This document shows, in pieces, positions 8,911-20,910 of a DNA stretch of 24,000 nucleotides. The translations under genes were made by a program, and so were the position numbers. Positions within the stretch are counted from its first letter, which is position 1; each line of letters starts with the position of its first letter. The stretch is from Varibaculum timonense (GTDB taxonomy: Bacteria; Bacillota; Clostridia; Tissierellales; Tissierellaceae): assembly GCA_902386935.1 (NCBI GenBank), contig CABMKH010000005.1:100495-124494 (forward strand), in the 5' to 3' direction. Under the pieces are notes generated by a model that was given only the letters and a program-made list of their open reading frames with translations, did no database searches and was not told the DNA's origin.

Positions 8911-8921
8911 TATCACATATG

Positions 8922-9557
8922 TTATTTTAGACTTCCTACAATTTTGGTCCCATGGACCTCTTTTACTCCTGTCTTATTGACTATATCCATATAGTTTTCC
9001 TTGGTGACCCCTCCACCAGCCAATATAGCTATTCTATCATTAGAATAATCCACAAGTTCTTTCAAAGTGTCTAGATTATCCATTGCACTTTGGAGACCAC
9101 CTTTAGTTAGGACCCTATCTATTTTAAGCTCTACTAGTCTATCTAATGCAGACTTCTTATCCTCTATGGAATCAAAGGCCATATGGAAGGTGATCTTCAT
9201 ATCTCCAGCTCTATCTATGAGTCTCTTTATAGTGGATTCATCTATCTTATCATCCTCAGTCAAGGCACCTATGACTACTCCATCTACATTGAGGGATTGA
9301 CAGATTTCTACATCCTTTTCCATAATTTTAATCTCATCTTCATCAAAGACAAAATTACCTCCTCTAGGACGTATTATTACAAATATGGGAATATTCAAGG
9401 CCCTTTTAGTCATCATAATAGTTCCTAAGCTAGGTGTAGTACCTCCTTCTTTTAGATTATCACATAGTTCTATTCTATTTGCACCTAATTCACAGGCTCT
9501 TTTAGCTTCTAAATAATTTCCCACACAGGCTTCTTTCAATATATACATAATTTTCAT
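8922..9557 (-). CDS. cutC: Copper homeostasis protein CutC family
   Basis: CutC-like N-terminus (EACVGNYLEAKRACELGANRIELCDNLKEGGTTPS) and TIM-barrel-like blocks (FHMAFD, RVLTKGG, ILAGGGV). An alternative start at 9548 (MYILKEA) has better SD spacing. Confidence 0.85.
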   Translation of the reverse strand: MKIMYILKEACVGNYLEAKRACELGANRIELCDNLKEGGTTPSLGTIMMTKRALNIPIFVIIRPRGGNFVFDEDEIKIMEKDVEICQSLNVDGVVIGALTEDDKIDESTIKRLIDRAGDMKITFHMAFDSIEDKKSALDRLVELKIDRVLTKGGLQSAMDNLDTLKELVDYSNDRIAILAGGGVTKENYMDIVNKTGVKEVHGTKIVGSLK

Positions 9558-9665
9558 ATCTCCTTTTCAATAATTATATTCCAATATCTTTTATATAATT
9601 ATAGACCATCTAAAAAAATTATCAAATATTATTTAAATAATGAGATCTTTGGATATAAATATCTT

Positions 9666-9740
9666 CTGTACATAACTTACTTATCATTAGGGAAGTTATA
9701 TGTAATAGATTTATAAAAAGCTAGGATATATAATTTTACT
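9666..9740 (+). promoter_or_regulatory. Conserved operator + promoter module, copy 1 (upstream of the PRD regulator)
   Basis: Core CTGTACATAACTTACTTATCATTAGGGAAGTTATATGTAATAGATTTATA. The -35-like TAGATT (9706-9711), a 17-nt spacer and TATAAT (9729-9734) follow. It is repeated at 16282 and 18921. Confidence 0.7.
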
Positions 9741-9758
9741 AGAAAGGATTGTATAATC

Positions 9759-11567
9759 GTGAATAAACGTCAGATAAGTTTACTAAAAAAACTAATAATT
9801 CAAGAGGATTATCAACCCATTAAATATTTTTCTAAGGAACTTGATATATCAGGGAAAACGGTATCTAAGGATCTAGATGAAATCCAAGAACATATCAATC
9901 TCACAGGAGTAAGAATAGATAGAAAACAAGGTATGGGGATAAAACTCTTCTATACTTCTTCTCAGCTAGATGACTTGAATAATATGATAAATAATACAAA
10001 TATATTTGAAGGCGATAAGGGACTAGAGCATAGGCGAATTCAGATTTTACTTAGTCTACTCATGAATACAAATAGATATACTACTATTCAAAGACTATCA
10101 GACAAATATATAGTTAGTAGGACGTCTATCAATAATGATCTAAATGAGATTCAGGAAAAATTAGATAGATATGGTTTAGAGCTTTCAAGAACTGTCAAGG
10201 GAACCAAGATAGTAGGCAGTGAAATAAATATTAGAAAGGCTTTAGTTTCTACTATTCAAGAATATGGGAAATTTCATCCAGACTATATTGTAGAGTACCA
10301 GAACATAAGGCATAGAGAGCTTGAAGACATGGGAAAGAATACTATCCTAGATGAAGAGTCTGTTATATTCTTTGAAAATCTATTAAATAAGTTGGAAAAT
10401 GATTTAAAGCTAGTAATATATGAGCCCTATTATACCAATTTATTGACTCATCTAGTTATTATGACAAATAGGATACTAAGCGGAAATCGTATAGAGGACA
10501 AGTCAGAGGAAAATGACGTGGTATTGGTAACTAATAAGAAATTATACCATAGTGCAATCTATTTAATAGACGAGATAGAGAAAAAGTTCGATATCAAAAT
10601 AAATACAGAGGAGACAATATATATCTACAAATATTTGACCTCTATAGGACTAAGTTATGACGGAAATAGAGATAGGGATAGGGGAGATGATCTGCCCCAT
10701 GTGAAATTTACTAGGGATCTCATAGATATAGTATCTCAGATGTCAGATATAGACTATAGTCTAAGGACTAATCTATATGAGAGACTATCATTGCATATAA
10801 AACCCATGTTAAATAGGGCAAAATATAATATCCAGATAAAGAATCCTCTTTTAAAGGACTTTCTAGGAGAATTTCAAGAGGAGTTCTATGTAGTAAAATT
10901 AGCTTGTTTTTTGGTCTCTAATAGGTATAACAAAAAGATGATAAGTGATCATGAAGTTGCCTATATTCTATCCTACTTTATATCTGAAGGAGAGAGAAGT
11001 GCAGAGGATATCAAGATAAAGACAGTAGTCATCTGTCATAGTGGATATGGAACTAGTCAGCTTTTGGCTACTAGATTGGAAAAGTCCTTTAACAATATTG
11101 AAGTAGTAGATATCATCTCATCTAATTCTATTAATAATATAGATTTGAATAAGATAGACTTAATAGTCTCAACTGTACCATTAGACATAGGTGAGTCATA
11201 TTTTACAGTATCTGCATTTTTAAATGAAATTGATAAGAAGAATATAGAAAACCATATGGAATCCATATTTAAAAGTAGAAGGGCCCTATCTTTTCCAGAA
11301 AAAGTAGAGAATGTATTAGTAGAGAATATCCAAGATGCTGAAGATATAGAAAAGTTCAATCGTATCATCAATAGGGATAATTTACTCCACATAAAAGATA
11401 ATATCTATATATATCCATTAGAGAATAGGAGGAATTATGCTAAAAAAACCATAATAGAAGGGAAATATATATATTCCATCCATTATTCTAACTATAGATA
11501 CCTATCTAAAGTTTTAAGACAGGTAATGAGAGAAAATATAGATGAGGAGAATCTAGACTATGATTGA
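9759..11567 (+). CDS. PRD-domain transcriptional activator of the LicR/MtlR/ManR class (two wHTH, two PRD, EIIB-Gat-like domain), without a fused EIIA domain
   Basis: N-terminal HTH segments (ISGKTVSKDLDEIQEHI; VSRTSINNDLNEIQEKL). PRD-like helices carry conserved His (LLTHLVIMTNR, LSLHIKPMLNR). EIIB-like motif VVICHSGYGTSQLLA. GTG start with AAAGGA upstream. Confidence 0.8.
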   Translation: MNKRQISLLKKLIIQEDYQPIKYFSKELDISGKTVSKDLDEIQEHINLTGVRIDRKQGMGIKLFYTSSQLDDLNNMINNTNIFEGDKGLEHRRIQILLSLLMNTNRYTTIQRLSDKYIVSRTSINNDLNEIQEKLDRYGLELSRTVKGTKIVGSEINIRKALVSTIQEYGKFHPDYIVEYQNIRHRELEDMGKNTILDEESVIFFENLLNKLENDLKLVIYEPYYTNLLTHLVIMTNRILSGNRIEDKSEENDVVLVTNKKLYHSAIYLIDEIEKKFDIKINTEETIYIYKYLTSIGLSYDGNRDRDRGDDLPHVKFTRDLIDIVSQMSDIDYSLRTNLYERLSLHIKPMLNRAKYNIQIKNPLLKDFLGEFQEEFYVVKLACFLVSNRYNKKMISDHEVAYILSYFISEGERSAEDIKIKTVVICHSGYGTSQLLATRLEKSFNNIEVVDIISSNSINNIDLNKIDLIVSTVPLDIGESYFTVSAFLNEIDKKNIENHMESIFKSRRALSFPEKVENVLVENIQDAEDIEKFNRIINRDNLLHIKDNIYIYPLENRRNYAKKTIIEGKYIYSIHYSNYRYLSKVLRQVMRENIDEENLDYD

Positions 11568-12009
11568 GAACATTCTTGATATAGAAAATATACTTGTAGA
11601 TGATATTTTAGAATCTAAAGAAGAGGCCATTGACAGATTAGTAGATCTCTTAATAACTTCAAAGGTACTTTTAGATAGAAAAGAGTTCATAAAGTCCATA
11701 TATGATAGAGAGAGTAGAGCTTCTACTTATGTAGGAGAATATTTGGCTATTCCTCATGGAACTTGCAAATCTGTGATAAAACCAACAATTGCCATTGCTA
11801 AAGTAAATAGAGAATTCTCATGGGGAGAAAGCTATGAACAGGTTAAGTTGGTCATATTATTTGCTATTCCTGAAGATGGACACTGGGAAGAAGAATTAGG
11901 GATATTGAAAAAATTTGCTTCTCTATTGGGAGATTCAGAGTTTATAAAAGGGTTGTTAGAATCAGATACAAAGAGAGAATTATTTGTACAAGCTAAGGAA
12001 AGGTTTTAG
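11560..12009 (+). CDS. PTS EIIA, mannitol/fructose/Ntr type (PTS_EIIA_2), stand-alone
   Basis: Phosphorylatable His motif LAIPHGT, preceded by DRESRASTYVGE, with overall EIIA-2 spacing. The ATG overlaps the regulator stop within ATGATTGA. Confidence 0.85.
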   Translation: MIENILDIENILVDDILESKEEAIDRLVDLLITSKVLLDRKEFIKSIYDRESRASTYVGEYLAIPHGTCKSVIKPTIAIAKVNREFSWGESYEQVKLVILFAIPEDGHWEEELGILKKFASLLGDSEFIKGLLESDTKRELFVQAKERF

Positions 12010-12090
12010 CATGTATAGTGGAGATTTTTATGGTCATATTATATTATACGGTTCTTTGATGAAAAATTATAAAAAGCAGGAGTGATAACA

Positions 12091-13431
12091 GTGCTTAAAA
12101 AACTAGAAAAAGTTTTGATGCCATTAGCAGATAAATTAGGGAAAAACAAGGTCTTAGTTGCAATTCGTGATGGATTTTTAATATCAACTCCACTATTGAT
12201 TGTAGGGTCTATTTTCTTATTAATAGCCAACTTTCCAATAAAGAATTGGTCTGAATTTTGGACACAATATCTAGGAGAAGGTTGGGAGATGTGGTTTATA
12301 AATGTATCTAGAGCAACATTTAGTGTAATTGCTCTATTGACATGTATAGGAACGGGATATGCCTATTCTAGAGAGATAAAGGGAGATAAGATTCAAGGGG
12401 CTGTAGTGGCATTTGTTTCTTTCCTCATACTGATGCCTACTATGATTCCATATGAAGGCGTTGAAGGACCAAGTAATGTAAGTGCATTGGGTTTTGAATA
12501 TGTTGGATCAAATGGAATATTTTTGGCACTAGTAGTATCCATATTGTCAGTATCTATATTTGATTGGGCCTACAAAAAAGGATGGACAATAAAGATGCCC
12601 AATGGAGTGCCACCAGCAGTAGCAGATTCCTTTGCAGCGTTGATTCCAAGCTCTATAGTAATGTTTGTATTCTTTTTAATTAGAATTATATTTGAATTTA
12701 CCTCATTTGGAACAGCTCATAACTTTATATATAAGGTATTACAGACTCCACTTCAAGGTGTGGGAAATACTTTGGGAGCACAGATTGTATATGGTGTAGC
12801 ATCTACGCTTTTTTGGTTCTTTGGAATCAATGGACCAGCAGTTACAAATGCAGTGTTTGGACCAATTACCAAGATATTGACCATAGAGAATTTAGAGGCA
12901 TTTCAAGCAGGATTGCCATTGCCTAATATATTTACAGACCCATTTTCCAACTTCTTCACTGGATTTGGAGGTGGAGGAAGTACACTTTCACTAGTTATAG
13001 TTATGGTACTATTCTGTAAATCTAAGAGGATTACTCAATTAGGTAAGTTGTCCATAGTACCAGGAATCTTTGGAATCAATGAACCTATAATATTTGGTCT
13101 ACCAATAGTATTGAACCCTATATTGATAATTCCATTTATAGGAGTTCCTACAATGAATGTGATTCTCTCCACTTTGGCAACTAGGGCTGGAATTATACCA
13201 TATACTACTGGAGTGGCATTGCCATGGACTACTCCAATAGGATTTTCAGGATATCTATCTACAGGTAGCTTATTTGCATCATTATGGCAGATAGGACTAT
13301 TGATACTTGGATGTATAGTTTACTATCCATTTATAAAGATACTAGACAGACAATATCTAAGAGAGGAAAGAGATGCAGAGGATAATAAATCTGATATAGA
13401 TGATATTTCTTTTGATGATCTATCTCTATGA
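12091..13431 (+). CDS. PTS EIIC, lactose/cellobiose/diacetylchitobiose family (copy 1)
   Basis: Typical CelB/ChbC blocks (LVAIRDGF, FWFFGINGP, GGGGST, GIFGINEPIIFGLPIVLNP). GTG 12091 gives MLKKLEKVLMP, matching the paralog start MLSKLEEVLMP. The track's GTG at 12082 sits inside the AGGAG RBS. Confidence 0.9.
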   Translation: MLKKLEKVLMPLADKLGKNKVLVAIRDGFLISTPLLIVGSIFLLIANFPIKNWSEFWTQYLGEGWEMWFINVSRATFSVIALLTCIGTGYAYSREIKGDKIQGAVVAFVSFLILMPTMIPYEGVEGPSNVSALGFEYVGSNGIFLALVVSILSVSIFDWAYKKGWTIKMPNGVPPAVADSFAALIPSSIVMFVFFLIRIIFEFTSFGTAHNFIYKVLQTPLQGVGNTLGAQIVYGVASTLFWFFGINGPAVTNAVFGPITKILTIENLEAFQAGLPLPNIFTDPFSNFFTGFGGGGSTLSLVIVMVLFCKSKRITQLGKLSIVPGIFGINEPIIFGLPIVLNPILIIPFIGVPTMNVILSTLATRAGIIPYTTGVALPWTTPIGFSGYLSTGSLFASLWQIGLLILGCIVYYPFIKILDRQYLREERDAEDNKSDIDDISFDDLSL

Positions 13432-13451
13432 TTAATTTAGGGGGTAAGACA

Positions 13452-13973
13452 ATGAAGATTTTAATGATATTAGATCAAACACAGGCTGGATTAGGAGGAA
13501 AGGAAAATCCTGATTTGCCTTTAGGTGGAAAGAGTATGCCAATAGGTTCTGCACATATGTTGGAACCAAGTTTGAAACAAGTAGATGGAAAGGTTGTAGC
13601 ATGTCTATATTGTGGAGACGGATATTTTAAGAAAAATAGGGAAGAAGTAAAATTAAAGATGGCTGCAATGGTAAAGAAGATAAGCCCAGATATAGTAGTA
13701 TGTGGTCCAGCTTTTAACTATGCTGGATATGCAGAGATGTGTGCCGTTTTAGCCCATGAAATAAATGAAAAGACAGATATCCCAGCTATTGCTGCCATGT
13801 CTAAGGAAAATGAGGAAACTATTTCAGAATACAAGGATTCAGTGAATATTGTCATCATGCCTAAAAAAGGCGGAACAGGATTAAGCGAATCCCTAAATAA
13901 TATCTGTGTTCTTGCAAAGAAAATAGTAGATGGCGAAGACATAACTGACTATGCAAAACAAATATGTTACTAA
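13452..13973 (+). CDS. Small cytoplasmic protein resembling only the N-terminal domain of GrdB/PrdB-family reductase B subunits
   Basis: From memory of GrdB N-termini (MK.VHYINQF.A.IGGE.KAD...ICGD.YF...PD....GPAFNAGRYG). The matching blocks here are MKILMILDQTQAGLGGKENPD, YCGDGYF, SPDIVVCGPAFNYAGYAEMC and DIPAIAAM. There is no Sec/UGA, and the protein is 173 aa against ~430 for GrdB. RBS AGGGGG precedes ATG 13452. Confidence 0.55.
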   Translation: MKILMILDQTQAGLGGKENPDLPLGGKSMPIGSAHMLEPSLKQVDGKVVACLYCGDGYFKKNREEVKLKMAAMVKKISPDIVVCGPAFNYAGYAEMCAVLAHEINEKTDIPAIAAMSKENEETISEYKDSVNIVIMPKKGGTGLSESLNNICVLAKKIVDGEDITDYAKQICY

Positions 13974-13974
13974 A

Positions 13975-14009
13975 AATAAGGTAGCCTAAATCTTCTAGGC
14001 TACCTTATT
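13975..14009 (+). other. Perfect 14-bp hairpin between the GrdB-N-like gene and the first M42 gene
   Basis: AATAAGGTAGCCTA - aatcttc - TAGGCTACCTTATT. The downstream sequence GCTTAGAG has no U-tract, so it is not a canonical terminator. Confidence 0.6.
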
Positions 14010-14038
14010 GCTTAGAGAAGAAAGGAAGGGTGTAAAGT

Positions 14039-15115
14039 ATGAAAATAGATGACAATACATTGAAATTGGCACAGGAGATTACACAGATAATAGGTGTATC
14101 AGGTAATGAAAGATATATATCTAAAGCTTTGCAAGCTCACTATAAAAAGTACGCAGATGAAATAGTATTTGACAATCTAGGTTCAGTATTTGCAGTAAAG
14201 AGATGTGGAAAGAAAAATGCTAAAAAGGTGATGATTTCAGCCAATATGGATGAGATTGGGTTTATGGTAAATGGGATTACAGATAATGGACTTCTCAAGA
14301 TATTGCCATTGGGAACTATTTTGAATCAGACCATATTATCTCAGAGAATTAGACTGATAAATGGAGAAGGCAAAGAGTTTAAAGGAGCTATAGTGACTAA
14401 GAATAGTGGTGAAGATAAGTCCAAGGTAATAGATATTGATGAGATGTTTGCAGATATTGGAGCTACTAGTAAAGAAGAAGTAGAACAGATGGGTGTAAGA
14501 TTAGGAGATTCCATAGTCATAGATGGACCCTTTGAGATATTATCTACAGGTAAGAGAATACTTTCTAAAGCTTGGAACAATAGATATGGGTGTATACTTG
14601 GGATAGAAATATTGAAGGCATTGAAGGATGTAGAATTAGGTGTGGATTTATATGTGGGATGCACAGTTCAAAAAGAAATAGGTCTAAGGGGAGCGGAGAC
14701 TGCTACAAATCTAGTGGCACCAGATTTGGGAATAGTTCTAGATTGTCTACAGGCCAATGATGTAGAAGGTAAAGAGGATGCAGTGGGCAAATTAGGGGAA
14801 GGACTATTGATAAACTACTATGATAAATCCATGATGCCTAATAGGGCGCTTCTCAACCATCTAGTAGATATATGTAAATCAAATGACATAAAGTACCAAT
14901 ACTACTATTCAATGAAGGAAAATGATGCTAAATGGATTCATAAATTATTGGTAGGATGTCCAACTTTAATGGCGTGTATTTGTACAAGAAATGTAAATAC
15001 AAATAGCTCTATTATCCATATGGATGACTATCTAGCTGCAAAAGAAGCAGTTGTCAGGGTTATAAGATCTTTAGATACAGAGACTATTGATAGATTTAAA
15101 GCTGAAAACAGATAG
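14039..15115 (+). CDS. M42 (TET/FrvX/YsdC) peptidase-family paralog with degenerate active site (predicted non-catalytic)
   Basis: It is collinear with the neighbouring M42 protein, but the key residues are replaced. SANMDEIG stands for GHMDEVG, AWNNRYG for AWDDRIG, VQKEIGLRGA for VQEEVGLRGA, and TRNVNT for TRYMHS. Confidence 0.85.
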   Translation: MKIDDNTLKLAQEITQIIGVSGNERYISKALQAHYKKYADEIVFDNLGSVFAVKRCGKKNAKKVMISANMDEIGFMVNGITDNGLLKILPLGTILNQTILSQRIRLINGEGKEFKGAIVTKNSGEDKSKVIDIDEMFADIGATSKEEVEQMGVRLGDSIVIDGPFEILSTGKRILSKAWNNRYGCILGIEILKALKDVELGVDLYVGCTVQKEIGLRGAETATNLVAPDLGIVLDCLQANDVEGKEDAVGKLGEGLLINYYDKSMMPNRALLNHLVDICKSNDIKYQYYYSMKENDAKWIHKLLVGCPTLMACICTRNVNTNSSIIHMDDYLAAKEAVVRVIRSLDTETIDRFKAENR

Positions 15116-15147
15116 GATATAGGATTAAGAGTACTGGAGGAGAGCTT

Positions 15148-16227
15148 ATGTATAATATGGATTTCCAGATGCTAAAGGAGTTAAGTGAAGCTGATGGAAT
15201 ATCAGGTTGTGAAAGAGAAGTAAGTAGGGTTGTAAAGAGATATTTTGAAGAATATGCAGATGAGATCATGTATGATAATTTAGGCTCTATAATTGGGCTA
15301 AAAAAAGGAAATGAAGATGGGCCAAAGATAATGATAGCTGGTCATATGGATGAAGTAGGATTTCTTGTAAGAGATATAGACAAAGATGGCTATATAAGGA
15401 TATTGCCTGTAGGTGGATGGTGGGGTCATGTACTTCCCTCTCAGGAGATGCGGATAACTACCTCTACTGGAAAGAAGATATATGGAGTAGTGGGAAGTCG
15501 AGCACCTCATGGGATGCCTTCTGAAGAAAAGGAGAAGGTCATTAAACCTATAGATCTATTTATAGATATAGGAGTAGAAAATAGAGAAGAAGCAGAAGAA
15601 CTAGGAATACAGATTGGAGATATGATTACGCCTAATACAGAGTGTAGAATTATGAACAATTCAAATTATATAGTAGGGAAGGCATGGGACGATAGAATAG
15701 GTGTAGCTGTAGCCATAGATGTATTGAGACATCTTCAAAACATTGAACATGATGCAAATGTCTATGCTGTAGGTACAGTCCAAGAAGAGGTAGGCTTAAG
15801 GGGAGCTAGGACAGCTACTCACATGATAAATCCCCATATTGGGATTGCACTAGATGTGACAACTGCTAAGGATACACCTATGGATAAGGGAGACATAGGA
15901 TTAGGGCGTGGTGTCATCCTAAGTATATTAGATGCAACAGCTCTAGCCCATAGGGGACTTTTAAGTGAGCTTGAACAAATATGCAAAGACTTAAGATTAG
16001 ATATAAACTATGATGCTATGACCGTAGGTGGAACTGATGCAGGTAATATCCACAAGACCTTCAGTGGAGTTATTACCATGACGCTTTCTATTCCCACAAG
16101 GTATATGCATTCTCCTAGATTGCTAATCCATAGAAGAGACTATATGGAGACTGTAGAGGTCTTGGCAGAATTCTGTAAAAGACTGGATAAAGACCTATTA
16201 GAAAGATTGCGGATAACTACTAAATAA
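15148..16227 (+). CDS. M42 family aminopeptidase (TET/FrvX/YpdE-like), canonical active site
   Basis: All M42 metal/catalytic motifs are present: GHMDEVG, AWDDRIG, VQEEVGLRGA, ALDVT and PTRYMHSP. RBS GGAGGAG. Confidence 0.9.
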   Translation: MYNMDFQMLKELSEADGISGCEREVSRVVKRYFEEYADEIMYDNLGSIIGLKKGNEDGPKIMIAGHMDEVGFLVRDIDKDGYIRILPVGGWWGHVLPSQEMRITTSTGKKIYGVVGSRAPHGMPSEEKEKVIKPIDLFIDIGVENREEAEELGIQIGDMITPNTECRIMNNSNYIVGKAWDDRIGVAVAIDVLRHLQNIEHDANVYAVGTVQEEVGLRGARTATHMINPHIGIALDVTTAKDTPMDKGDIGLGRGVILSILDATALAHRGLLSELEQICKDLRLDINYDAMTVGGTDAGNIHKTFSGVITMTLSIPTRYMHSPRLLIHRRDYMETVEVLAEFCKRLDKDLLERLRITTK

Positions 16228-16281
16228 TAGATTTTAAAATATAATATATTTTAGATCGATAATGGGTACTCTACAACATGA

Positions 16282-16350
16282 ACATAAGTTACCTATTATT
16301 AAGGAAGTTATATGTAATAGATTTACAAATAGACTTAGGATATAGTCTAA
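16282..16350 (+). promoter_or_regulatory. Conserved operator + promoter module, copy 2 (upstream of the M20 / glycosylasparaginase / EIIA unit)
   Basis: Core ACATAAGTTACCTATTATTAAGGAAGTTATATGTAATAGATTTACA. TAGATT (16318-16323), a 17-nt spacer and TATAGT (16341-16346) follow. Confidence 0.7.
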
Positions 16351-16409
16351 TTAGAAAGAATTTAGAAATTCACATATGAAACTTATCTTTCTTAACGGAG
16401 GTAATATAG

Positions 16410-17534
16410 ATGGAACAGATATTAAATGATAAAATTGATGAATATAGAGAAGAATTATTGAAGTCTATTGTGGAAGTAGTGAATATACCAAGTGTGAGAG
16501 GAGAGTCAAGTGAGGATGCACCCTTTGGAAAAGAGCCAAAGAGAGCATTGGAAAAGGCTCTAGAAATAGCAGAAAGATTAGGATTTCAGACTCATATTGT
16601 AGACAATTGTGTTGGATATGCTCAATATGGACAGGGAGAAGACTATATAGGAATTGTAGGACATCTAGATGTAGTAGATGAAGGAGAAGGTTGGAAATTT
16701 CCACCATTTAGTGGGGATATTGAAGATGGAAAGATGTATGGCAGAGGTGTATTGGACAATAAAGGACCAATCATGTCGGCTCTTTATGGACTATATGCTG
16801 TGAAACAATCTGGTCTAAAGATAAATAAGCCAGTAAGAATCATATTTGGAACCAATGAAGAGACTGGATTTGGTGATATGCCTCACTATTTAGGAAAGGA
16901 AAAGCCACCTATAATGGGATTTACTCCTGATTGTAAATATCCAGTAGTATATGGAGAAAGAGGAAGGGCAAATATACAATTTCAAATAGAATATAATAGT
17001 GAAAACTATGAATATATGGCTAAGGAGTTTTTTGACTTTTTAAATACCTATATCCTCTCTAGTAAGGTAAATGGAGATAGATTGGGAATAGACTTTAGTG
17101 ATAGTGAATTCGGTACTATGGAGATGAGAAATTATAAGATAGATTTAGAGGAATCTAAGATGCTTTTCAATCTTAGTCTAAGTTATCCAGCCATAGTAAG
17201 TATTGATGAAATAGTGAAGAGGATAGAGTCCAAACTATCAGAAAATATAAAGTTAAACTTGTTGTTAAATTATGATCCTGTTAAATTTGAGAAGGATTCC
17301 TTCCTAGTTAAATCCCTACAAAGGGCATATGAAGATGTGACAGGACTAGATGGTACTCCTGTGACTACTACAGGAGGAACATATGCAAAGATAGTTCCTA
17401 ATATTGTACCCTTTGGACCATCTTTTCCTGGACAGAAGGGTATAGCTCATAATCCAAATGAGTACATGGATATAAGTGATATTATTTTAAATGCAAAGAT
17501 ATTTGCTCAAGCAATATATAATTTGGCAAAATAA
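16410..17534 (+). CDS. M20 family metallopeptidase (PepV/DapE-like dipeptidase or amidohydrolase)
   Basis: Motifs GHLDVV, GRGVLDNKGP, GTNEETG, GFTPDCKYPVVYGERG and a C-terminal GIAHNPNEY. At 374 aa it is shorter than ~470-aa PepV enzymes. Confidence 0.85.
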   Translation: MEQILNDKIDEYREELLKSIVEVVNIPSVRGESSEDAPFGKEPKRALEKALEIAERLGFQTHIVDNCVGYAQYGQGEDYIGIVGHLDVVDEGEGWKFPPFSGDIEDGKMYGRGVLDNKGPIMSALYGLYAVKQSGLKINKPVRIIFGTNEETGFGDMPHYLGKEKPPIMGFTPDCKYPVVYGERGRANIQFQIEYNSENYEYMAKEFFDFLNTYILSSKVNGDRLGIDFSDSEFGTMEMRNYKIDLEESKMLFNLSLSYPAIVSIDEIVKRIESKLSENIKLNLLLNYDPVKFEKDSFLVKSLQRAYEDVTGLDGTPVTTTGGTYAKIVPNIVPFGPSFPGQKGIAHNPNEYMDISDIILNAKIFAQAIYNLAK

Positions 17535-17555
17535 GCTTAGAAAAGAGGGATATAT

Positions 17556-18515
17556 ATGAGTTGGGCTTTTATAGCTACATGGAGAATGGCACTAGAGGGT
17601 ATTCAAGAAGGGGCTAAGCTATTAGAGGACAATGGAAACTGTGGAGATGCTGTGGAGACAGCTATAAAGATGGTAGAAGATTTTCCATATTATAAATCTG
17701 TAGGATATGGTGGGCTTCCCAATGAAAATGGAGAAGTAGAACTAGATGCAGCCTATATGGATGGAGATAGTCTATCTATTGGAGCTGTTGCAGGAATTAA
17801 GGATTTCAAAAATCCTATAAGTATAGCTAGAAAACTAAGTAAAGAAAAATTCAATTGTTTTTTAGTAGGTCAAGGAGCAGAGGAATATGCTCACAAAAAT
17901 GGATTTGAAAGAGTGAATATGCTTACAGACAGGGCTATTATCCACTATAAGAATAGATTGAAGGAAATAAAGACTAGAGATCTTACTCCATATTCTGGCC
18001 ATGATACTGTAGGAATGGTTGCACTAGATTTAAATAATTCTATGGCAGCTGGTACATCTACAAGTGGTCTATTTATGAAAAAAAGAGGTAGAACAGGAGA
18101 TTCTCCACTATCAGGTTCAGGTTTTTATGTAGATAGTGAAATCGGAGGAGCAACAGCTACTGGATTAGGAGAAGATATTATGAAGGGATGTGTATCCTAT
18201 GAGATTGTAAGACTTATGAAGGAAGGATATACACCTCAAGAAGCAGCAGATAAGGCAGTATCTGATTTAAACAATCTCCTTATTAGTAGGAGAAAGGAAG
18301 CAGGAGATATCTCTGTTGTATGTATCAATAATAAGGGGGAATTTGGAGTAGCCACAAATATAGAGGGATTTTCCTTTGTAGTAGCTACAGATAGTTTATC
18401 TCCAACTGTATATGTATGTTCATCAGACAATGGAAGGACCACATATGAAGCTGCAAGTAAGGAATGGTTAGATGACTATATGAAAACTAGGACTGCACCA
18501 CTAGAGTTAAAATAA
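17556..18515 (+). CDS. N4-(beta-N-acetylglucosaminyl)-L-asparaginase (glycosylasparaginase, Ntn hydrolase), cytoplasmic
   Basis: Autoprocessing/nucleophile motif GHDTVGMVALD (Thr151, codon 18006-18008). It is followed by AAGTSTSGLFMKKRGRTGDSPLSGSGFYVD, which closely parallels the human AGA block [30 protein letters not shown]. No N-terminal signal peptide is present. Confidence 0.85.
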   Translation: MSWAFIATWRMALEGIQEGAKLLEDNGNCGDAVETAIKMVEDFPYYKSVGYGGLPNENGEVELDAAYMDGDSLSIGAVAGIKDFKNPISIARKLSKEKFNCFLVGQGAEEYAHKNGFERVNMLTDRAIIHYKNRLKEIKTRDLTPYSGHDTVGMVALDLNNSMAAGTSTSGLFMKKRGRTGDSPLSGSGFYVDSEIGGATATGLGEDIMKGCVSYEIVRLMKEGYTPQEAADKAVSDLNNLLISRRKEAGDISVVCINNKGEFGVATNIEGFSFVVATDSLSPTVYVCSSDNGRTTYEAASKEWLDDYMKTRTAPLELK

Positions 18516-18549
18516 TGAAAAAAGCTAAAAGAGAAAGAAGGTTATGATT

Positions 18550-18870
18550 ATGGAAGGTATGGAATTGATGAATTTTCAAATAATAAGCAATGTAGGAGAT
18601 GCAAAATCATATCTATTTGAATCTTTGAAGGCATCAAGGGAAGACAGATTTGAAGATGCTGAAAAGCTTATTAAAGATGCAGATAAGAGTTTAGAAAAGG
18701 CCCATGAAATTCATGTAGAGCTTCTTCAAAGTGAAACACAGGGAAAGCCCATAGAGATATCTCTTCTATTGATGCATGCTGAAGATCAGATGATGACTAC
18801 AGAGATGTTCAGAGATATTGCCAATGAGATGTTGTTGATGCATAAAAAATACGCAAATATAGATAAATAA
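18550..18870 (+). CDS. PTS EIIA, lactose/cellobiose family
   Basis: CelC/ChbA-like sequence: FQIISNVGDAKS, AHEIHVELLQSE, and the His site in LLLMHAEDQMMT. ATG 18550 has better spacing to GAAAGAAGG than the track's ATG at 18544. Confidence 0.88.
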   Translation: MEGMELMNFQIISNVGDAKSYLFESLKASREDRFEDAEKLIKDADKSLEKAHEIHVELLQSETQGKPIEISLLLMHAEDQMMTTEMFRDIANEMLLMHKKYANIDK

Positions 18871-18871
18871 G

Positions 18872-18901
18872 GACTAGGTAAATTTTACCTAGTCTTTATT
18901 T
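18872..18901 (+). terminator. Rho-independent terminator after the Lac-type EIIA
   Basis: GACTAGGTAAA..TTTACCTAGTC followed by TTTATTT. Confidence 0.75.
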
Positions 18902-18920
18902 ATCTATAATATATAGAAAG

Positions 18921-18995
18921 CTGTACATAAGTTACTTATCATTAGGGAAGCTATATGTAATAGATTTATAGAAGACTAAAATATATAATTTTATT
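18921..18995 (+). promoter_or_regulatory. Conserved operator + promoter module, copy 3 (upstream of EIIB / EIIC-2)
   Basis: 67 of 75 positions are identical to copy 1 in an ungapped hand alignment. TAGATT (18961-18966), a 17-nt spacer and TATAAT (18984-18989) follow. A ~125-nt leader separates it from the EIIB start. Confidence 0.7.
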
Positions 18996-19114
18996 GTAGG
19001 AGATTATTTAAGCATATTCCTAGGGGAAAACGATGTCGATAATTTAAGGAAGGCTTAGATATATTGGAGTTTTTAAATACTTAGAGAAAAAATTATATTT
19101 AGGAGGTAAAGATA

Positions 19115-19438
19115 ATGAAGAAGATATATCTATTTTGTGATCAAGGTATGAGTACTAGTATGTTGGCTAAGAAGATGCAGGATATTGGGGACAAACACAA
19201 TTTACCTGTAGAGGTGAAGGCCTATTCTATCAAGATATTGGAAAAAATATTAGAAGAAGAGCATCCAGATTGTGTATTATTAGGACCTCAAGTTAGACAT
19301 CTACTTGAAGATACTGAGAATAGAGTGGAAGGCTATAATGTCCCAGTGGGAGTAGTTGATTCTGTTGACTACGGAATGATGGATGGGGAAAGAGTTCTTA
19401 AAAAAGCTATATTGATGATGAAAAATTACAAGAAATAG
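19115..19438 (+). CDS. PTS EIIB, lactose/cellobiose family
   Basis: Active-site Cys motif IYLFCDQGMSTSML, plus LLGPQV and DGERVLKKA as in ChbB/LicB. RBS AGGAGG. Confidence 0.9.
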   Translation: MKKIYLFCDQGMSTSMLAKKMQDIGDKHNLPVEVKAYSIKILEKILEEEHPDCVLLGPQVRHLLEDTENRVEGYNVPVGVVDSVDYGMMDGERVLKKAILMMKNYKK

Positions 19439-19448
19439 GGGGATAATA

Positions 19449-20795
19449 ATGCTTAGTAAACTAGAAGAAGTTTTAATGCCCATAGCAGATAGATTAGGGA
19501 AAAATAAGATCTTAGTTGCAATTCGTGATGGGTTTTTAGTATCTACTCCACTTATAATTGTAGGTTCTATATTCCTTTTAATAGCCAACTTTCCAGTGAC
19601 AGGTTGGTCTGAATTTTGGGCAAGGTTTTTTGGAACAGGATGGGAATCCTATCTATCAAATGTAGCTAGAGCTACCTTTGATATAGTGTCAATATTGACA
19701 GTTATTGGTATAGGATATGCCTACGCAAGGGAGATAGGGGCAGATAGGATACAAGGTGCAATTGTCTCATTAGTAGCTTTTGTAATCCTAATGCCTACAG
19801 CTATTCCCTATGTAGGAGAAGAAGGACCTGCAGTAATGAGAGCTATAAGTTTTTCCTATATAGGAACCAATGGAATATTTTTAGCAATGTTAGTTTCTAT
19901 TTTATCTGTTCGAATATTCAATTGGGCCTACAACAAGGGATGGACAATAAAATTACCTAAGGGAGTTCCACCTGCTGTATTTGATTCATTTGCAGCTTTG
20001 ATTCCAAGTGCAATAGTAATGTTTGTATTCTTTGTAGCCAGAATTGTATTTGAGCTTACTCCATATGAATCAGCACATAATTTTATATATACTGTATTAC
20101 AAGCGCCATTGATGGGAGTAGGAAATAGTCTAGGTGCTCAAATAGTATATGCAGTAGTATGTTCTGTTTTCTGGTTCTTTGGAATAAATGGACCTTCAGT
20201 TGCAAATTCAGTTTTTTCACCAATATTTAGAACTCTATCAATGGAGAATTTAGCAGCTTTTGAAGCAGGTTTACCATTGCCACATATATACACTGGACAG
20301 TTTGTAGATCTATTTCAAACCTTTGGTGGGGGAGGAAGTACTCTTTCCTTAGTTATTCTTATGATGACAGTCTGTAAGTCTCAGAGGATCAAACAACTAG
20401 GGAGATTATCTATTGTGCCAGGTATCTTTGGAATCAATGAACCTATAATATTTGGTCTTCCAATAGTATTAAATCCTATAATGATAATTCCATTTATAGG
20501 TGTTCCATTGATGAATACAGTTTTATCAGCAATAGCCTTTGAAACTGGATTTTTACCTTATACAAATGGGGTTGCACTACCTTGGACAATACCATTAGGA
20601 TTTTCAGGATATCTATCTACAGGTAGTTTTAAGGCATCCCTATTCCAGATTGTATTGTTGATATTAGGCTGTATAGTCTATTATCCATTTATAAAGATAT
20701 TAGATAAAAATTATCTCAAAGAAGAACATGCTCAAGATGATGAAGGTGGATTAGACGATATATCCTTCGATGATATATCCTTTGATGATCTATAG
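19449..20795 (+). CDS. PTS EIIC, lactose/cellobiose/diacetylchitobiose family (copy 2, paralog of 12091..13431)
   Basis: It is collinear with copy 1 and shares long identical runs (LVAIRDGFL, GWTIK.P.GVPPAV, IVPGIFGINEPIIFGLPIVLNPI). RBS AGGGGG. Confidence 0.9.
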   Translation: MLSKLEEVLMPIADRLGKNKILVAIRDGFLVSTPLIIVGSIFLLIANFPVTGWSEFWARFFGTGWESYLSNVARATFDIVSILTVIGIGYAYAREIGADRIQGAIVSLVAFVILMPTAIPYVGEEGPAVMRAISFSYIGTNGIFLAMLVSILSVRIFNWAYNKGWTIKLPKGVPPAVFDSFAALIPSAIVMFVFFVARIVFELTPYESAHNFIYTVLQAPLMGVGNSLGAQIVYAVVCSVFWFFGINGPSVANSVFSPIFRTLSMENLAAFEAGLPLPHIYTGQFVDLFQTFGGGGSTLSLVILMMTVCKSQRIKQLGRLSIVPGIFGINEPIIFGLPIVLNPIMIIPFIGVPLMNTVLSAIAFETGFLPYTNGVALPWTIPLGFSGYLSTGSFKASLFQIVLLILGCIVYYPFIKILDKNYLKEEHAQDDEGGLDDISFDDISFDDL

Positions 20796-20802
20796 AAGAT
20801 AG

Positions 20803-20834
20803 AGGACTAGGTAAATTTTTACCTAGTCCTTTTC
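20803..20834 (+). terminator. Rho-independent terminator after EIIC-2
   Basis: AGGACTAGGTAAA-ttt-TTTACCTAGTCCT followed by TTTC. Confidence 0.75.
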
Positions 20835-20880
20835 TAAAGAATAATTTAAAAATATTTAAGAATATGAGCCCTTTTATTCA

Positions 20881-20910
20881 TTGACTTTATAATATATCTT
20901 AGGATATAAT
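20881..20910 (+). promoter_or_regulatory. Sigma-A-type promoter of the antiterminator/EIICB module
   Basis: TTGACT (20881-20886), an 18-nt spacer and TATAAT (20905-20910). Confidence 0.65.

What the first reader, a model, noticed from the sequence alone, without database searches (positions are those of the whole stretch)
9666..20834. Lac/Cel-family PTS locus with peptidases and a glycosylasparaginase instead of any glycosidase: candidate PTS-linked glyco-asparagine / N-glycopeptide salvage system
The sequence shows a full Lac/Cel-type PTS: EIIA at 18550, EIIB at 19115, and EIIC at 12091 and 19449. It is co-localised and apparently co-regulated with two M42 peptidases, an M20 peptidase and a signal-peptide-less glycosylasparaginase.

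The enzymes that normally accompany cel/chb/lic PTS operons are absent. There is no GH1/GH4 phospho-beta-glycosidase, no deacetylase and no sugar kinase.

Established knowledge supports a pathway. Glycosylasparaginases cleave the GlcNAc-Asn amide and need a free alpha-amino and alpha-carboxyl group on the Asn. An aminopeptidase (M42) plus a dipeptidase/carboxypeptidase-type M20 is exactly what would trim a glycopeptide down to a cleavable glyco-Asn.

M42 genes embedded in PTS operons of unknown function are a long-standing puzzle in E. coli (frvX, sgcX, ypdE). From memory, and to be verified, a pepV + glycosylasparaginase pairing occurs in the Lacticaseibacillus casei fucosyl-GlcNAc-Asn cluster, but with a non-PTS permease.

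Inference: the substrate is taken up and phosphorylated on the sugar. It is then trimmed by peptidases and split into Asp plus (phospho)GlcNAc-amine.
Basis: partly seen in the sequence, partly recalled or inferred. Interest (0 to 1): 0.82.

Follow-up and report, generated by a model that had tools for sequence, protein, structure and literature searches.

The report
PTS-linked GlcNAc-asparagine salvage locus, peptidase-rich variant

Summary
The interpretation, a PTS-linked glyco-asparagine salvage system, is well supported. It is also already published: the E. faecalis 'ega' locus (Combret et al., Res Microbiol 175:104169) has a glycosylasparaginase, Lac/Cel EIIB and EIIC, a GrdB-like protein, a dipeptidase and a regulator, and a 'GlcNAc-L-Asn PTS' is cited as established.

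In 56 de-duplicated genome loci anchored on the asparaginase, an M20 peptidase (55), a Lac/Cel EIIC (51), CutC (44) and the GrdB-like protein (42) travel with it.

The window is a compound variant:
- A Senegalia-type operon (M20, asparaginase, EIIA, EIIB, EIIC2) is joined to an EIIC1–GrdB-like–M42a–M42b module. That module also occurs in Clostridium and in ega-ordered Vagococcus loci.
- Three transcription units carry the same 44-nt palindromic operator, probably bound by the locus's LicR/MtlR-type activator.

- M42a has lost four of seven catalytic or metal-binding residues and is probably inactive.
- The M20 is a short PepV-like form lacking the lid histidine region and Arg350.
- About 29% of related loci do carry a MupG-like phospho-glycosidase.

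Related gut loci add M81, M19 and M3 peptidases, which favours glycopeptide trimming. That step remains inferred.

The parts
8922..9557 (-). CutC-family TIM-barrel protein, divergent from the regulator gene.
   Evidence: PF03932, E 1e-70. PDB relatives 3IWP and 2BDQ. A CutC homologue lies within 8 kb of the asparaginase in 44 of 56 de-duplicated loci, usually as GA-M20-CutC.
9670..9713 (+). Operator-like 44-nt imperfect palindrome, copy 1. It sits just upstream of a -35/-10 pair (TATAAT-like box at about 9729) for the regulator operon.
   Evidence: three copies in the window, 0 expected by chance. A single copy lies upstream of the regulator gene in Senegalia, Schnuerera and Anaerosalibacter, with arm changes in Senegalia that keep the palindrome.
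9759..11567 (+). PRD-containing transcriptional activator of the LicR/MtlR/ManR type (HTH, Mga, two PRD stretches, EIIB(Gat)-like domain).
   Evidence: Pfam PRD 2e-23, Mga 7e-11, HTH_11, PTS_IIB. Orthologues 62-87% identical head the operon in relatives.
11560..12009 (+). EIIA(Mtl/Fru-type) domain protein. Most likely the split-off regulatory C-terminal domain of the activator, not a transport EIIA.
   Evidence: PF00359, E 1e-29, with an AIPHG His motif. In most other loci this domain is fused to the regulator, a 630-650 aa protein. The split is conserved in L003 and L006-L008.
12082..13431 (+). Lac/Cel-family EIIC, paralogue 1 ('EIIC1'). It belongs to the clade that always precedes GrdB-like and the M42 pair.
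   Evidence: TIGR00410, 405 bits. 70% identical to EIIC2. Every EIIC at least 75% identical to it (12 loci), and the Vagococcus EIICs at 71-72%, is followed by GrdB-like-(M20)-M42a-M42b.
13428..13973 (+). GrdB-related protein without selenocysteine. The likely true start is Met9, at about 13452. Function unknown.
   Evidence: NF041545, 263 bits against a cut-off of 175. Follows the EIIC in 42 of 56 loci. AlphaFold model pLDDT 95.6 with a flavodoxin-like alpha/beta fold and no close PDB neighbour. C62 invariant; C92 and C160 at least 90% conserved.
14039..15115 (+). M42-family paralogue 'M42a' with degenerate active site, predicted non-catalytic.
   Evidence: PF05343, 264 bits. Against B. subtilis 1VHE and M42b the changes are GH(x)DE to AN(M)DE, AWDDR to AWNNR, QEE to QKE, and RYMH to RNVN. 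Only 16 of 48 paired orthologues keep the last His.
15148..16227 (+). M42 (TET-type) aminopeptidase 'M42b', catalytically intact.
   Evidence: PF05343, 339 bits. 1VHE E 5e-103. Six of the seven canonical metal-binding or catalytic residues are invariant across all 51 clade members, and the last His is kept in 50 of 51.
16282..16325 (+). Operator-like palindrome, copy 2, upstream of the M20-GA-EIIA unit.
   Evidence: Conserved at the same place in L001 and L006.
16410..17534 (+). Short PepV/Sapep-like M20 metallopeptidase (374 aa).
   Evidence: TIGR01887, 374 bits. Metal and catalytic motifs are kept, but about 80 residues of the PepV lid (about 218-296, including the His269 region) are absent and PepV Arg350 is Ser. 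The 365-381 aa form is the commonest partner of the asparaginase. An M20 is present in 55 of 56 loci.
17556..18515 (+). Cytoplasmic glycosylasparaginase (N4-(beta-N-acetylglucosaminyl)-L-asparaginase-type Ntn hydrolase).
   Evidence: Best PDB match Flavobacterium glycosylasparaginase, E 2e-61, against isoaspartyl peptidases at 2e-37. H149-D150-T151 autoprocessing site, R179, D182, T202/G203 and W9 are conserved. NCBI names its relatives this way. No signal peptide.
18544..18870 (+). Lac/Cel-type EIIA.
   Evidence: PF02255, E 2e-31. MHAEDQ His motif.
18872..18894 (+). Palindromic hairpin followed by a T-rich tract. Likely terminator of the M20-GA-EIIA unit.
   Evidence: Nearly the same palindrome recurs at 20803-20830.
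18925..18968 (+). Operator-like palindrome, copy 3, upstream of EIIB-EIIC2.
19115..19438 (+). Lac/Cel-type EIIB. It is the only EIIB in this window.
   Evidence: PF02302, E 9e-17. Cys8 in the CxxGMSTS motif. Close relatives have a second EIIB plus an RDD-family gene, which are deleted here.
19449..20795 (+). Lac/Cel-family EIIC, paralogue 2 ('EIIC2'), of the Senegalia/Schnuerera operon type.
   Evidence: TIGR00410, 430 bits. 81-83% identical to the single EIIC of the Senegalia, Schnuerera and Anaerosalibacter operons.
20803..20830 (+). Palindromic hairpin plus T-tract. Likely terminator at the end of the locus.

Best explanation
This is an ega-type, PTS-dependent utilisation locus for the Asn-linked GlcNAc stub of N-glycoproteins, in a Tissierellaceae genome. 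It is built from two related modules under one activator.

**Shown by sequence or comparison**
- A complete Lac/Cel PTS: EIIA, EIIB and two 70%-identical EIICs.
- A signal-peptide-less glycosylasparaginase with all residues for autoprocessing and aspartyl binding.
- A short PepV-like M20.
- One intact M42 aminopeptidase (M42b) and one degenerate paralogue (M42a).
- A GrdB-like protein and CutC.
- A LicR/MtlR-type PRD activator.
- Three transcription units that each carry the same 44-nt palindrome next to their promoter.

**Inferred mechanism**
1. GlcNAc-Asn, and probably very short Asn(GlcNAc) peptides left after extracellular proteolysis and endo-beta-N-acetylglucosaminidase action, enter through EIIC2 and/or EIIC1. 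They are phosphorylated on the sugar, presumably at O6, via HPr, EIIA and EIIB.
2. M42b, perhaps in a mixed oligomer with the non-catalytic M42a, removes residues N-terminal to the glyco-Asn. The M20 frees the alpha-carboxyl side.
3. The glycosylasparaginase needs both groups free. It splits the amide into L-aspartate and 1-amino-GlcNAc(-6-P), which loses ammonia to give GlcNAc-6-P for NagA/NagB encoded elsewhere.
4. While substrate is being transported, the PTS components stop phosphorylating the activator's EIIB/EIIA-like domains. The activator then binds the three operators and switches on all units, including its own.

The roles of GrdB-like and CutC are unknown. They are the most conserved uncharacterised partners.
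For: **Family assignments**
- Pfam, NCBIfam and PDB assignments for every gene.

**Published precedent**
- The E. faecalis ega locus and its 'GlcNAc-L-Asn PTS' (PMC11549559; PMC11976118).

**Conserved synteny around the asparaginase**
- In 56 de-duplicated loci: M20 55, Lac/Cel EIIC 51, EIIB 47, CutC 44, GrdB-like 42, EIIA 38.
- Aspartase (14 loci) and malic enzyme (11 loci) appear in Clostridium versions. This fits aspartate being a product.

**Links to the ega arrangement and to peptidases**
- Vagococcus (Enterococcaceae) loci have the published ega order plus the M42 pair. Their EIIC is 71-72% identical to EIIC1 and their asparaginase 58-59% identical to the window's.
- A search anchored on M42a, so not biased towards the asparaginase, still finds the asparaginase-M20-CutC block within about 5-7 kb in most lineages.
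- That search also shows M81, M19 and M3 peptidases inserted between the modules in human-gut contigs.

**Co-regulation**
- Three copies of the 44-nt palindrome, with 0 expected by chance. Relatives with a single operon have one copy, and in Senegalia both arms change while remaining palindromic.
Against: - No experiment exists for this organism.
- I could not obtain the E. faecalis sequences or read Combret et al. Orthology to the characterised proteins therefore rests on gene content, gene order and the Vagococcus intermediates.
- In L. casei a pepV mutant grew normally on the glyco-amino acid, so the M20 may be dispensable for the simple substrate.
- M42a is probably inactive. The short M20 lacks PepV His269 and Arg350, so its activity as a classical dipeptidase is doubtful.
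- In a few lineages (L091-94, L110, L113, L124) the EIIC1-GrdB-M42 module has no asparaginase within 10 kb.
- Whether the asparaginase accepts a 6-phosphorylated sugar is untested here.
Confidence: 0.75

Rival explanations
1. The locus uses free GlcNAc-Asn only, as reported for E. faecalis. The two EIICs are redundant or differ only in affinity. The M20 and M42 proteins do not trim glycopeptides; they might handle ordinary di- or oligopeptides, or Asp-containing products, that happen to be co-regulated.
For: - The only experimentally named substrate of this kind of PTS is GlcNAc-L-Asn.
- L. casei pepV is dispensable for growth on the glyco-amino acid.
- M42a is degenerate and the M20 is atypical.
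- Lac/Cel EIICs are known for disaccharide-sized substrates (established knowledge of the family).
Against: - An M20 accompanies the asparaginase in 55 of 56 loci.
- The EIIC1 clade is always followed by the M42 pair.
- Unrelated peptidase families (M81, M19, M3) have been recruited independently into the same locus in gut bacteria. That is hard to explain if no peptide bond has to be cut.
Confidence: 0.25
2. The EIIC1-GrdB-like-M42a-M42b module serves a different sugar-amino acid or sugar-peptide conjugate, for example a glycated (Amadori) peptide or a muropeptide fragment. It has merely been joined to the glyco-Asn operon and its activator.
For: - The module occurs without an asparaginase within 10 kb in some metagenomic lineages (L091-94, L110, L113, L124).
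- In the window clade it looks like an insertion into a Senegalia-type operon.
- M42 genes sit in other PTS operons of unknown substrate in E. coli (frvX, sgcX, ypdE; recalled knowledge).
Against: - In Clostridium and Vagococcus, the EIIC1-type EIIC of the module is the only EIIC next to the asparaginase. In the main gut lineage the module supplies the EIIC while the asparaginase block supplies EIIA and EIIB, so the two halves form one PTS.
- The GrdB-like protein is the same family that follows the EIIC in loci without M42 genes.
- No deglycase, amidase or MurNAc etherase is present.
Confidence: 0.12
3. The Ntn hydrolase is an isoaspartyl peptidase or plant-type asparaginase working with the peptidases on beta-aspartyl peptides. 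The PTS imports an ordinary beta-glucoside or chitobiose.
For: - It belongs to Pfam Asparaginase_2, and its only NCBIfam hit is a beta-aspartyl-peptidase model, well below cut-off (121 against 567 bits).
- One JGI record names a relative 'isoaspartyl peptidase/L-asparaginase-like'.
Against: - It is far closer to solved glycosylasparaginases (E 2e-61, about 45% identity, with the sugar-stacking Trp conserved) than to isoaspartyl peptidases (2e-37).
- There is no glycosidase in the window to use a beta-glucoside.
- The ega precedent.
- Synteny with a PTS in 51 of 56 loci.
Confidence: 0.04

Closest known systems
Enterococcus faecalis ega (enterococcal glycosylasparaginase) locus, OG1RF_10933-10939; Combret et al., Res Microbiol 175:104169 (as described in PMC11549559 and PMC11976118)
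   Same: - A cytoplasmic glycosylasparaginase, Lac/Cel-family EIIB and EIIC, a GrdB-like 'putative oxidoreductase' after the EIIC, and an M20 dipeptidase.
- More than one promoter, and PTS-dependent use of GlcNAc-L-Asn.
- Vagococcus loci with this gene order have proteins 58-72% identical to the window's and also carry the M42 pair.
   Different: - The regulator is a GntR repressor there and a LicR/MtlR-type PRD activator with a split EIIA domain here.
- The EIIA (CelA1) is encoded elsewhere in E. faecalis and inside the locus here.
- The window has two EIICs and an M42a/M42b pair, and CutC is adjacent.
- No M42 genes are mentioned for OG1RF_10933-10939.
- The E. faecalis sequences themselves could not be compared.
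Lacticaseibacillus casei BL23 alf-2 cluster (alfHC, asdA, alfR2, pepV, asnA2, sugK); PMC6960285
   Same: - pepV-type M20 paired with a signal-peptide-less, self-processing glycosylasparaginase.
- Products are Asp plus 1-amino-GlcNAc, which goes on to GlcNAc.
- A downstream Asp-consuming enzyme in some loci.
- The authors also suggested that glycopeptides could be substrates.
   Different: - Uptake there is by an MFS permease that requires a 6'-fucose, followed by the AlfC fucosidase and a ROK sugar kinase. Here a PTS replaces both the permease and the kinase, and there is no fucosidase.
- GntR regulator there.
- No M42, GrdB-like or CutC genes are described there.
Flavobacterium/Elizabethkingia meningoseptica glycosylasparaginase (PDB 1AYY, 2GAW, 9GAA and others) and human AGA
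   Same: - Ntn-hydrolase fold family.
- His-Asp-Thr autoprocessing site with a Thr nucleophile.
- Arg/Asp pair for the alpha-carboxyl and alpha-amino groups, Thr-Gly oxyanion region, and the Trp that stacks on GlcNAc.
   Different: - Those enzymes are secreted or lysosomal and act on unphosphorylated GlcNAc-Asn.
- The window protein is cytoplasmic and follows a PTS.
- Its N-terminal motif is ATWRMA in all PTS-linked homologues seen, where the Flavobacterium enzyme has STWNFG.
cel/chb/lic Lac/Cel-family PTS operons (for example E. coli chbBCARFG, B. subtilis licRBCAH)
   Same: - EIIA, EIIB and EIIC of the same families.
- A LicR-like PRD activator with an operator next to the -35 box.
   Different: - No GH1/GH4 phospho-beta-glycosidase and no ChbG-type deacetylase.
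- An amidohydrolase and peptidases take their place.
E. coli PTS operons with M42 genes (frvABXR, sgc, ypdABCDEFGH)
   Same: An M42 (TET-type) aminopeptidase gene embedded in a PTS operon whose substrate is not a plain sugar.
   Different: - Different PTS families (Fru and Gat types), and no asparaginase or GrdB-like protein.
- The NCBIfam equivalog models for the E. coli proteins score below cut-off (286 against 412 bits for M42b).
- This comparison is from recalled knowledge and was not examined here.

Membership tests
ega-type GlcNAc-Asn PTS utilisation locus | Cytoplasmic glycosylasparaginase gene in the cluster | tested here: met
   17556-18515. Glycosylasparaginase is the best PDB match (2e-61), catalytic and binding residues are conserved, and there is no signal peptide.
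ega-type GlcNAc-Asn PTS utilisation locus | Lac/Cel-family EIIB and EIIC encoded next to the asparaginase | tested here: met
   19115-19438, 19449-20795 and 12082-13431. The same linkage is seen in 51 of 56 related loci.
ega-type GlcNAc-Asn PTS utilisation locus | GrdB-related small protein ('putative oxidoreductase') directly after the EIIC | tested here: met
   13428-13973, NF041545 above cut-off. The description of the E. faecalis gene is in PMC11549559.
ega-type GlcNAc-Asn PTS utilisation locus | M20 dipeptidase gene in the locus | tested here: met
   16410-17534, although it is a short-lid variant.
ega-type GlcNAc-Asn PTS utilisation locus | GntR-family regulator | tested here: not met
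   The regulator here is HTH/Mga/PRD/EIIB-like plus a separate EIIA(Mtl-type) ORF. Vagococcus loci do have GntR. Regulator type varies across the family: LicR-like in 28 loci and sigma54/PRD in 23.
ega-type GlcNAc-Asn PTS utilisation locus | Sequence orthology to the characterised E. faecalis proteins | not tested
   No E. faecalis sequence could be retrieved. The indirect bridge is the Vagococcus ega-ordered loci: asparaginase 58-59%, EIIC 71-72%, GrdB-like 59-62% identical.
ega-type GlcNAc-Asn PTS utilisation locus | Growth on, or induction by, GlcNAc-Asn that depends on the locus | not testable with these tools
   This needs culture and genetics.
Glycosylasparaginase (EC 3.5.1.26), Ntn hydrolase | His-Asp-Thr autoproteolysis site, Thr nucleophile, Arg and Asp for the substrate's alpha-carboxyl and alpha-amino groups, Trp stacking on GlcNAc | tested here: met
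   H149-D150-T151, R179, D182, T202-G203 and W9 align with H150-D151-T152, R180, D183, T203-G204 and W11 of the Flavobacterium enzyme. All are invariant in 9 relatives.
Glycosylasparaginase (EC 3.5.1.26), Ntn hydrolase | Hydrolysis of GlcNAc-Asn, or of GlcNAc-6P-Asn | not testable with these tools
   This needs an enzyme assay.
M42 (TET) aminopeptidase | Two-metal site (His, Asp, Glu, Asp/Glu, His) and a catalytic Glu | tested here: met
   M42b, 15148-16227: all seven positions are canonical. Six are invariant in 51 of 51 clade members and the last His is kept in 50 of 51.
M42 (TET) aminopeptidase | The same two-metal site and catalytic Glu in the second paralogue | tested here: not met
   M42a, 14039-15115: His to Asn, Asp to Asn, Glu to Lys and His to Asn at four of seven positions. 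It has the M42 fold family but is predicted not to be a peptidase.
PepV/Sapep-type M20 dipeptidase | Metal ligands and catalytic Glu, plus the lid-domain residues that hold the substrate carboxylate and transition state (PepV Asn217, His269, Arg350) | tested here: inconclusive
   The metal and catalytic motifs (HxD, D-NKGP, NEET, PD, H-x-NE) are present. The lid segment around PepV 218-296 is absent and Arg350 aligns with Ser. Residue roles are recalled from the PepV structure literature.
cel/chb/lic beta-glucoside or chitobiose PTS operon | GH1/GH4 6-phospho-beta-glycosidase (and ChbG deacetylase for chb) | tested here: not met
   No ORF in 8800-23600 has such a domain. A MupG-like enzyme is also absent from the window.
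LicR/MtlR/ManR-type PRD activators | HTH-Mga-PRD-PRD-EIIB(Gat)-EIIA(Mtl) architecture and a palindromic operator abutting the -35 box of target promoters | tested here: met
   Domains, with EIIA as a separate ORF. Three 44-nt palindromes lie immediately upstream of promoter-like hexamers. Binding and regulatory phosphorylation were not tested.

The most novel reading that the evidence does not exclude
The EIIC1-GrdB-like-M42a/M42b module is a PTS for short Asn-linked glycopeptides rather than for a glyco-amino acid.
- It would be the first PTS known to import a peptide conjugate. That would also give the first concrete job for the M42 genes found in PTS operons (frvX, sgcX, ypdE).
- In this reading M42a is a non-catalytic subunit that adapts the M42b oligomer to glycosylated N-termini.
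- The conserved unknowns CutC and/or the GrdB-like protein would process the cytoplasmic product 1-amino-GlcNAc-6-phosphate, which at neutral pH should not break down as readily as it does in the lysosome.
- The Arg that always follows the sugar-stacking Trp (ATWRMA) would bind the 6-phosphate.
Probability: 0.22. Interest if true: 0.7.

Novelty: new variant of a known kind. Interest (0 to 1): 0.38.

Why it matters
The system lets Firmicutes, including gut commensals, clostridia and enterococci, feed on the last fragment of host N-glycoproteins. In E. faecalis it is reported to matter during infection.

This window adds no new principle. The comparison built around it does three things:
- It shows the cassette is very widespread: at least 539 genome hits across Clostridia, Erysipelotrichia, Peptostreptococcaceae, Lachnospiraceae and Enterococcaceae.
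- It defines partners that are always there but unexplained: the GrdB-like protein, CutC, the short-lid M20 and the RDD protein.
- It identifies a peptidase-rich subtype: an active M42 with a degenerate M42 partner, and in gut bacteria also M81, M19 and M3 peptidases.

The peptidase-rich subtype makes 'PTS uptake of glycopeptides' a concrete, testable idea. It also offers a handle on the old question of why M42 aminopeptidases sit in PTS operons.

Tried and rejected
- **Exact-sequence look-up of the window's asparaginase.** Not on record. The organism was therefore placed by homology as Tissierellaceae: 95% identity to strain HCP3S3_D8, with DNA identity of 77-91% across the aligned blocks (84-91% within the locus).
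- **Retrieving E. faecalis ega sequences.** All routes failed.
  - The genome scan kept only the 80 best loci, all at least 67% identical.
  - The large clusters among the GrdB-like hits turned out to be Faecalitalea, Amedibacillus and Coprobacillaceae.
  - The supplement of PMC11549559 is not held.
  - Combret et al. is not held.
  - A literature search for ega gene names returned noise, and a locus-tag search returned only the paper already read.
- **Rfam at E ≤ 0.1 over the whole window.** No riboswitch or leader RNA.
- **Strict cre consensus.** No match.
- **Literature linking CutC to glycosylasparaginase, or M42 or glycopeptides to a PTS.** Nothing found.
- **Isoaspartyl-peptidase reading of the Ntn hydrolase.** Considered and rejected.
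- **The 11560-12009 EIIA as a transport EIIA of a second PTS.** Considered and rejected. In most relatives that domain is the C-terminus of the regulator.

Full report
**1. Observation**

- Lac/Cel-family EIICs lie at 12082-13431 and 19449-20795.
- The EIIA is at 18544-18870 and the EIIB at 19115-19438.
- Two M42-family genes lie at 14039-15115 and 15148-16227.
- A PepV/Sapep-like M20 is at 16410-17534.
- An Asparaginase_2 Ntn hydrolase is at 17556-18515.

The Ntn hydrolase matches solved Flavobacterium glycosylasparaginases much better than isoaspartyl peptidases or plant-type asparaginases (E 2e-61 against 2e-37).
- It keeps the His-Asp-Thr autoprocessing site, the Arg/Asp pair for the aspartyl alpha-groups, the Thr-Gly oxyanion region and the sugar-stacking Trp.
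- These positions are invariant in nine relatives.
- Its Trp9 aligns with Trp11 of the mature secreted enzyme, so it has no signal peptide.

No glycosidase, deacetylase or sugar kinase lies in the region.

- a 602-aa PRD-type regulator (9759-11567);
- a separate EIIA(Mtl/Fru-type) ORF (11560-12009);
- a GrdB-related protein (13428-13973; NF041545 above cut-off);
- a divergent CutC gene (8922-9557, minus strand).

**2. Origin**

The exact protein is not on record. The nearest relatives are a Tissierellaceae isolate and MAGs (95%), then Schnuerera, Anaerosalibacter and Senegalia (82-86%), then Clostridium paraputrificum and its relatives (about 75%). NCBI already names these proteins N(4)-(beta-N-acetylglucosaminyl)-L-asparaginase.

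**3. Already published**

[quoted passage not shown] The paper is not held, but citing papers describe it.
- The ega locus has a GntR regulator and a dipeptidase under one promoter.
- Under another promoter it has EgaG, Lac/Cel EIIB and EIIC, and a gene for a putative (GrdB-like) oxidoreductase, which is a pseudogene in OG1RF (PMC11549559).

It pairs pepV with asnA2, uses an MFS permease, yields Asp and 1-amino-GlcNAc, and a pepV mutant grows normally (PMC6960285). The central idea is therefore right but not new.

**4. Neighbourhood survey**

A genome scan with an alignment of the asparaginase matched at least 539 places. The 80 best were kept. I called ORFs, labelled them by BLAST against the window's proteins, and clustered and annotated the rest.

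In 56 de-duplicated loci with at least 5 kb on both sides, these genes lie within 8 kb of the asparaginase:

| Gene | Loci (of 56) |
|---|---|
| M20 | 55 |
| Lac/Cel EIIC | 51 |
| EIIB | 47 |
| CutC | 44 |
| GrdB-like | 42 |
| Lac/Cel EIIA | 38 |
| LicR-like regulator | 28 |
| RDD-family membrane protein | 26 |
| sigma54/PRD activator | 23 |
| YitT-family protein | 21 |
| MupG-like (DUF871) enzyme | 16 |
| aspartase | 14 |
| malic enzyme | 11 |
| M42 pair | 10 |

- The common order is regulator-RDD-EIIA-EIIB-EIIC-GrdB-like-GA-M20-CutC.
- Aspartase and malic enzyme in the Clostridium versions fit aspartate being a product.
It is not met. Still, a MupG-family candidate 6-phospho-glycosidase is a frequent accessory (29%), and it never occurs together with the M42 pair.

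**5. Anatomy of this locus**

EIIC1 and EIIC2 are 70% identical.
- EIIC2 is 81-83% identical to the single EIIC of the Senegalia, Schnuerera and Anaerosalibacter operons. Their order is regulator-EIIA(Mtl)-RDD-EIIB-EIIC-GrdB-M20-GA-EIIA.
- Every EIIC at least 75% identical to EIIC1 is followed by GrdB-like-(M20)-M42a-M42b.
- The window clade therefore looks like a Senegalia-type operon into which an EIIC1-GrdB-M42a-M42b block has been incorporated.

Compared with its 95% relative L006, the window lacks about 950 bp that carry the RDD gene and a first EIIB. Its flanking ABC-transporter genes also sit on the other side of the locus.

Two Vagococcus genomes were found through the GrdB-like protein. 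They have the published ega order with the M42 pair appended: M20, GntR, then GA-EIIB-EIIC-GrdB-like-M42-M42. Their EIIC is 71-72% identical to EIIC1. This ties the window's first module directly to the enterococcal type.

**6. Regulation**

A 44-nt imperfect palindrome, ACATAAsTTACyTATyATTArGGAAGyTATATGTAATAGATTTA, occurs at 9670, 16282 and 18925. Each copy lies just upstream of promoter-like hexamers of a transcription unit. There are three matches with up to 3 mismatches against 0.00 expected.
- Close relatives have the same three copies.
- The single-operon relatives have one copy, upstream of the regulator gene.
- In Senegalia both arms have changed but remain complementary.

This is what an operator of the locus's LicR/MtlR-type activator would look like, and it supports co-regulation.

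Near-identical hairpins with T-tracts follow EIIA (18872-18894) and EIIC2 (20803-20830). No Rfam family and no strict cre site were found.

**7. The peptidases are not what they seem**

M42b keeps all seven canonical metal-binding and catalytic positions, and they are almost perfectly conserved across its 51-member clade. Six are invariant and the last His is replaced in one member.

M42a has Asn for the first His ligand, Asn for the bridging Asp, Lys for the catalytic Glu and Asn for the last His. Among 48 orthologues paired with an M42b, only 16 keep the last His. M42a is therefore probably non-catalytic. TET peptidases are known to form mixed oligomers (recalled knowledge), so it may be a partner subunit.

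The M20 keeps its metal site. It lacks about 80 residues of the PepV lid, including the His269 region, and has Ser for PepV Arg350. This 365-381 aa form is the usual partner of the asparaginase. Its substrate may not be a classical dipeptide.

**8. Test without asparaginase bias**

I scanned metagenome contigs with an M42a alignment and annotated the loci.

The dominant human-gut context is YitT(divergent)/regulator-RDD-EIIC-GrdB-M42a-M42b-M81(MlrC-like), then M19 and M3 (PepF-like) on the other strand, then EIIA-EIIB-GA-M20-CutC.
- The M42 module supplies the only EIIC, and the asparaginase block supplies EIIA and EIIB. The two halves make one PTS.
- Three more peptidase families have been drawn in.

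A few lineages have the module with no asparaginase within 10 kb, so the link is strong but not absolute.

All PTS-linked asparaginases seen, whatever the search anchor, carry ATWRMA where the secreted enzyme has STWNFG. The Arg is a candidate contact for a sugar 6-phosphate. This is speculation.

**9. Unknown partners**

The GrdB-like protein gives a confident model (pLDDT 95.6) with a flavodoxin-like alpha/beta fold, conserved cysteines and no close solved neighbour. CutC is a TIM-barrel protein with solved homologues but no convincing function. No paper links it to glycosylasparaginase.

**10. Verdict**

The locus is best filed as a compound, peptidase-rich variant of the ega-type GlcNAc-Asn PTS system. 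Its open questions are testable: glycopeptide uptake, the degenerate M42, the short M20, the GrdB-like protein and CutC.

Noticed in passing
window 20881-23466: Directly downstream lies a GlcT/LicT-type antiterminator (20962-21831) and a GlcNAc-specific PTS EIICB (22003-23466; TIGR01998, 636 bits). They follow a strong promoter-like site (TTGACT-18-TATAAT, 20881-20910) and a sequence that by eye resembles a RAT (GTGTTACTGATAAATATCAGGCATAAACC, about 20929-20957). The arrangement is the same as the autoregulated nagY-nagE operon of E. faecalis (PMC12502629). Free GlcNAc uptake is thus encoded next to GlcNAc-Asn uptake.
   Followed up: partly
window 11986-12055, compared with L006 3500-4448: The window lacks about 950 bp that in its closest relatives (L001, L002, L006) encode an RDD-family membrane protein and a first EIIB between the EIIA(Mtl-type) ORF and EIIC1. 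The window therefore has one EIIB for two EIICs.
   Followed up: yes
window 6484-8910, compared with L006 13481-15922: An ABC ATPase and a 547-aa protein with no Pfam match flank the locus in both genomes but on opposite sides: upstream of cutC here, and between EIIC2 and the antiterminator in L006. DNA identity is only 77%, against 84-91% for the locus itself.
   Followed up: partly
related loci, e.g. L043 13708-14802, L053 8378-9502, L084 7323-8414, L048 3773-4867: MupG-family (DUF871; 6-phospho-N-acetylmuramidase-like) genes sit inside or just after the asparaginase/PTS cassette in 16 of 56 loci, and never together with the M42 pair. They may cleave a phosphorylated outer sugar, for example from chitobiosyl-Asn, before the asparaginase acts.
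   Followed up: partly
L145 12122-16234 and L103 12912-16451 (human-gut metagenome contigs): M81 (MlrC-like), M19 (membrane-dipeptidase family) and M3 (oligoendopeptidase F-like) genes lie between the EIIC-GrdB-M42 module and the EIIA-EIIB-GA-M20-CutC module. That makes up to six peptidase-family genes in one PTS locus.
   Followed up: partly
window 8922-9557 (-) and 44 of 56 related loci: CutC, annotated as a copper-homeostasis protein, is one of the most faithful neighbours of the glycosylasparaginase (GA-M20-CutC). The link holds even in loci with no PTS nearby (L029, L042, L051). I found no literature on this link.
   Followed up: partly
window 18872-18894 and 20803-20830: The two terminator-like hairpins are nearly the same palindrome (GACTAGGTAAA-TTTACCTAGTC). 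They may have been duplicated when the units were rearranged.
   Followed up: no
L010-L013 (Clostridium sp. KNHs214): Four contigs of one assembly carry the same GA-CutC-EIIA segment at identical similarity to the query. This is probably an assembly duplication rather than four gene copies.
   Followed up: no
window 4147-5823: A 558-aa ORF has a uridine-kinase/PRK-family domain in its C-terminal half and a weak threonyl-tRNA-synthetase-like N-terminal match. It lies just after thrC-thrB. The fusion is unusual and was not examined.
   Followed up: no
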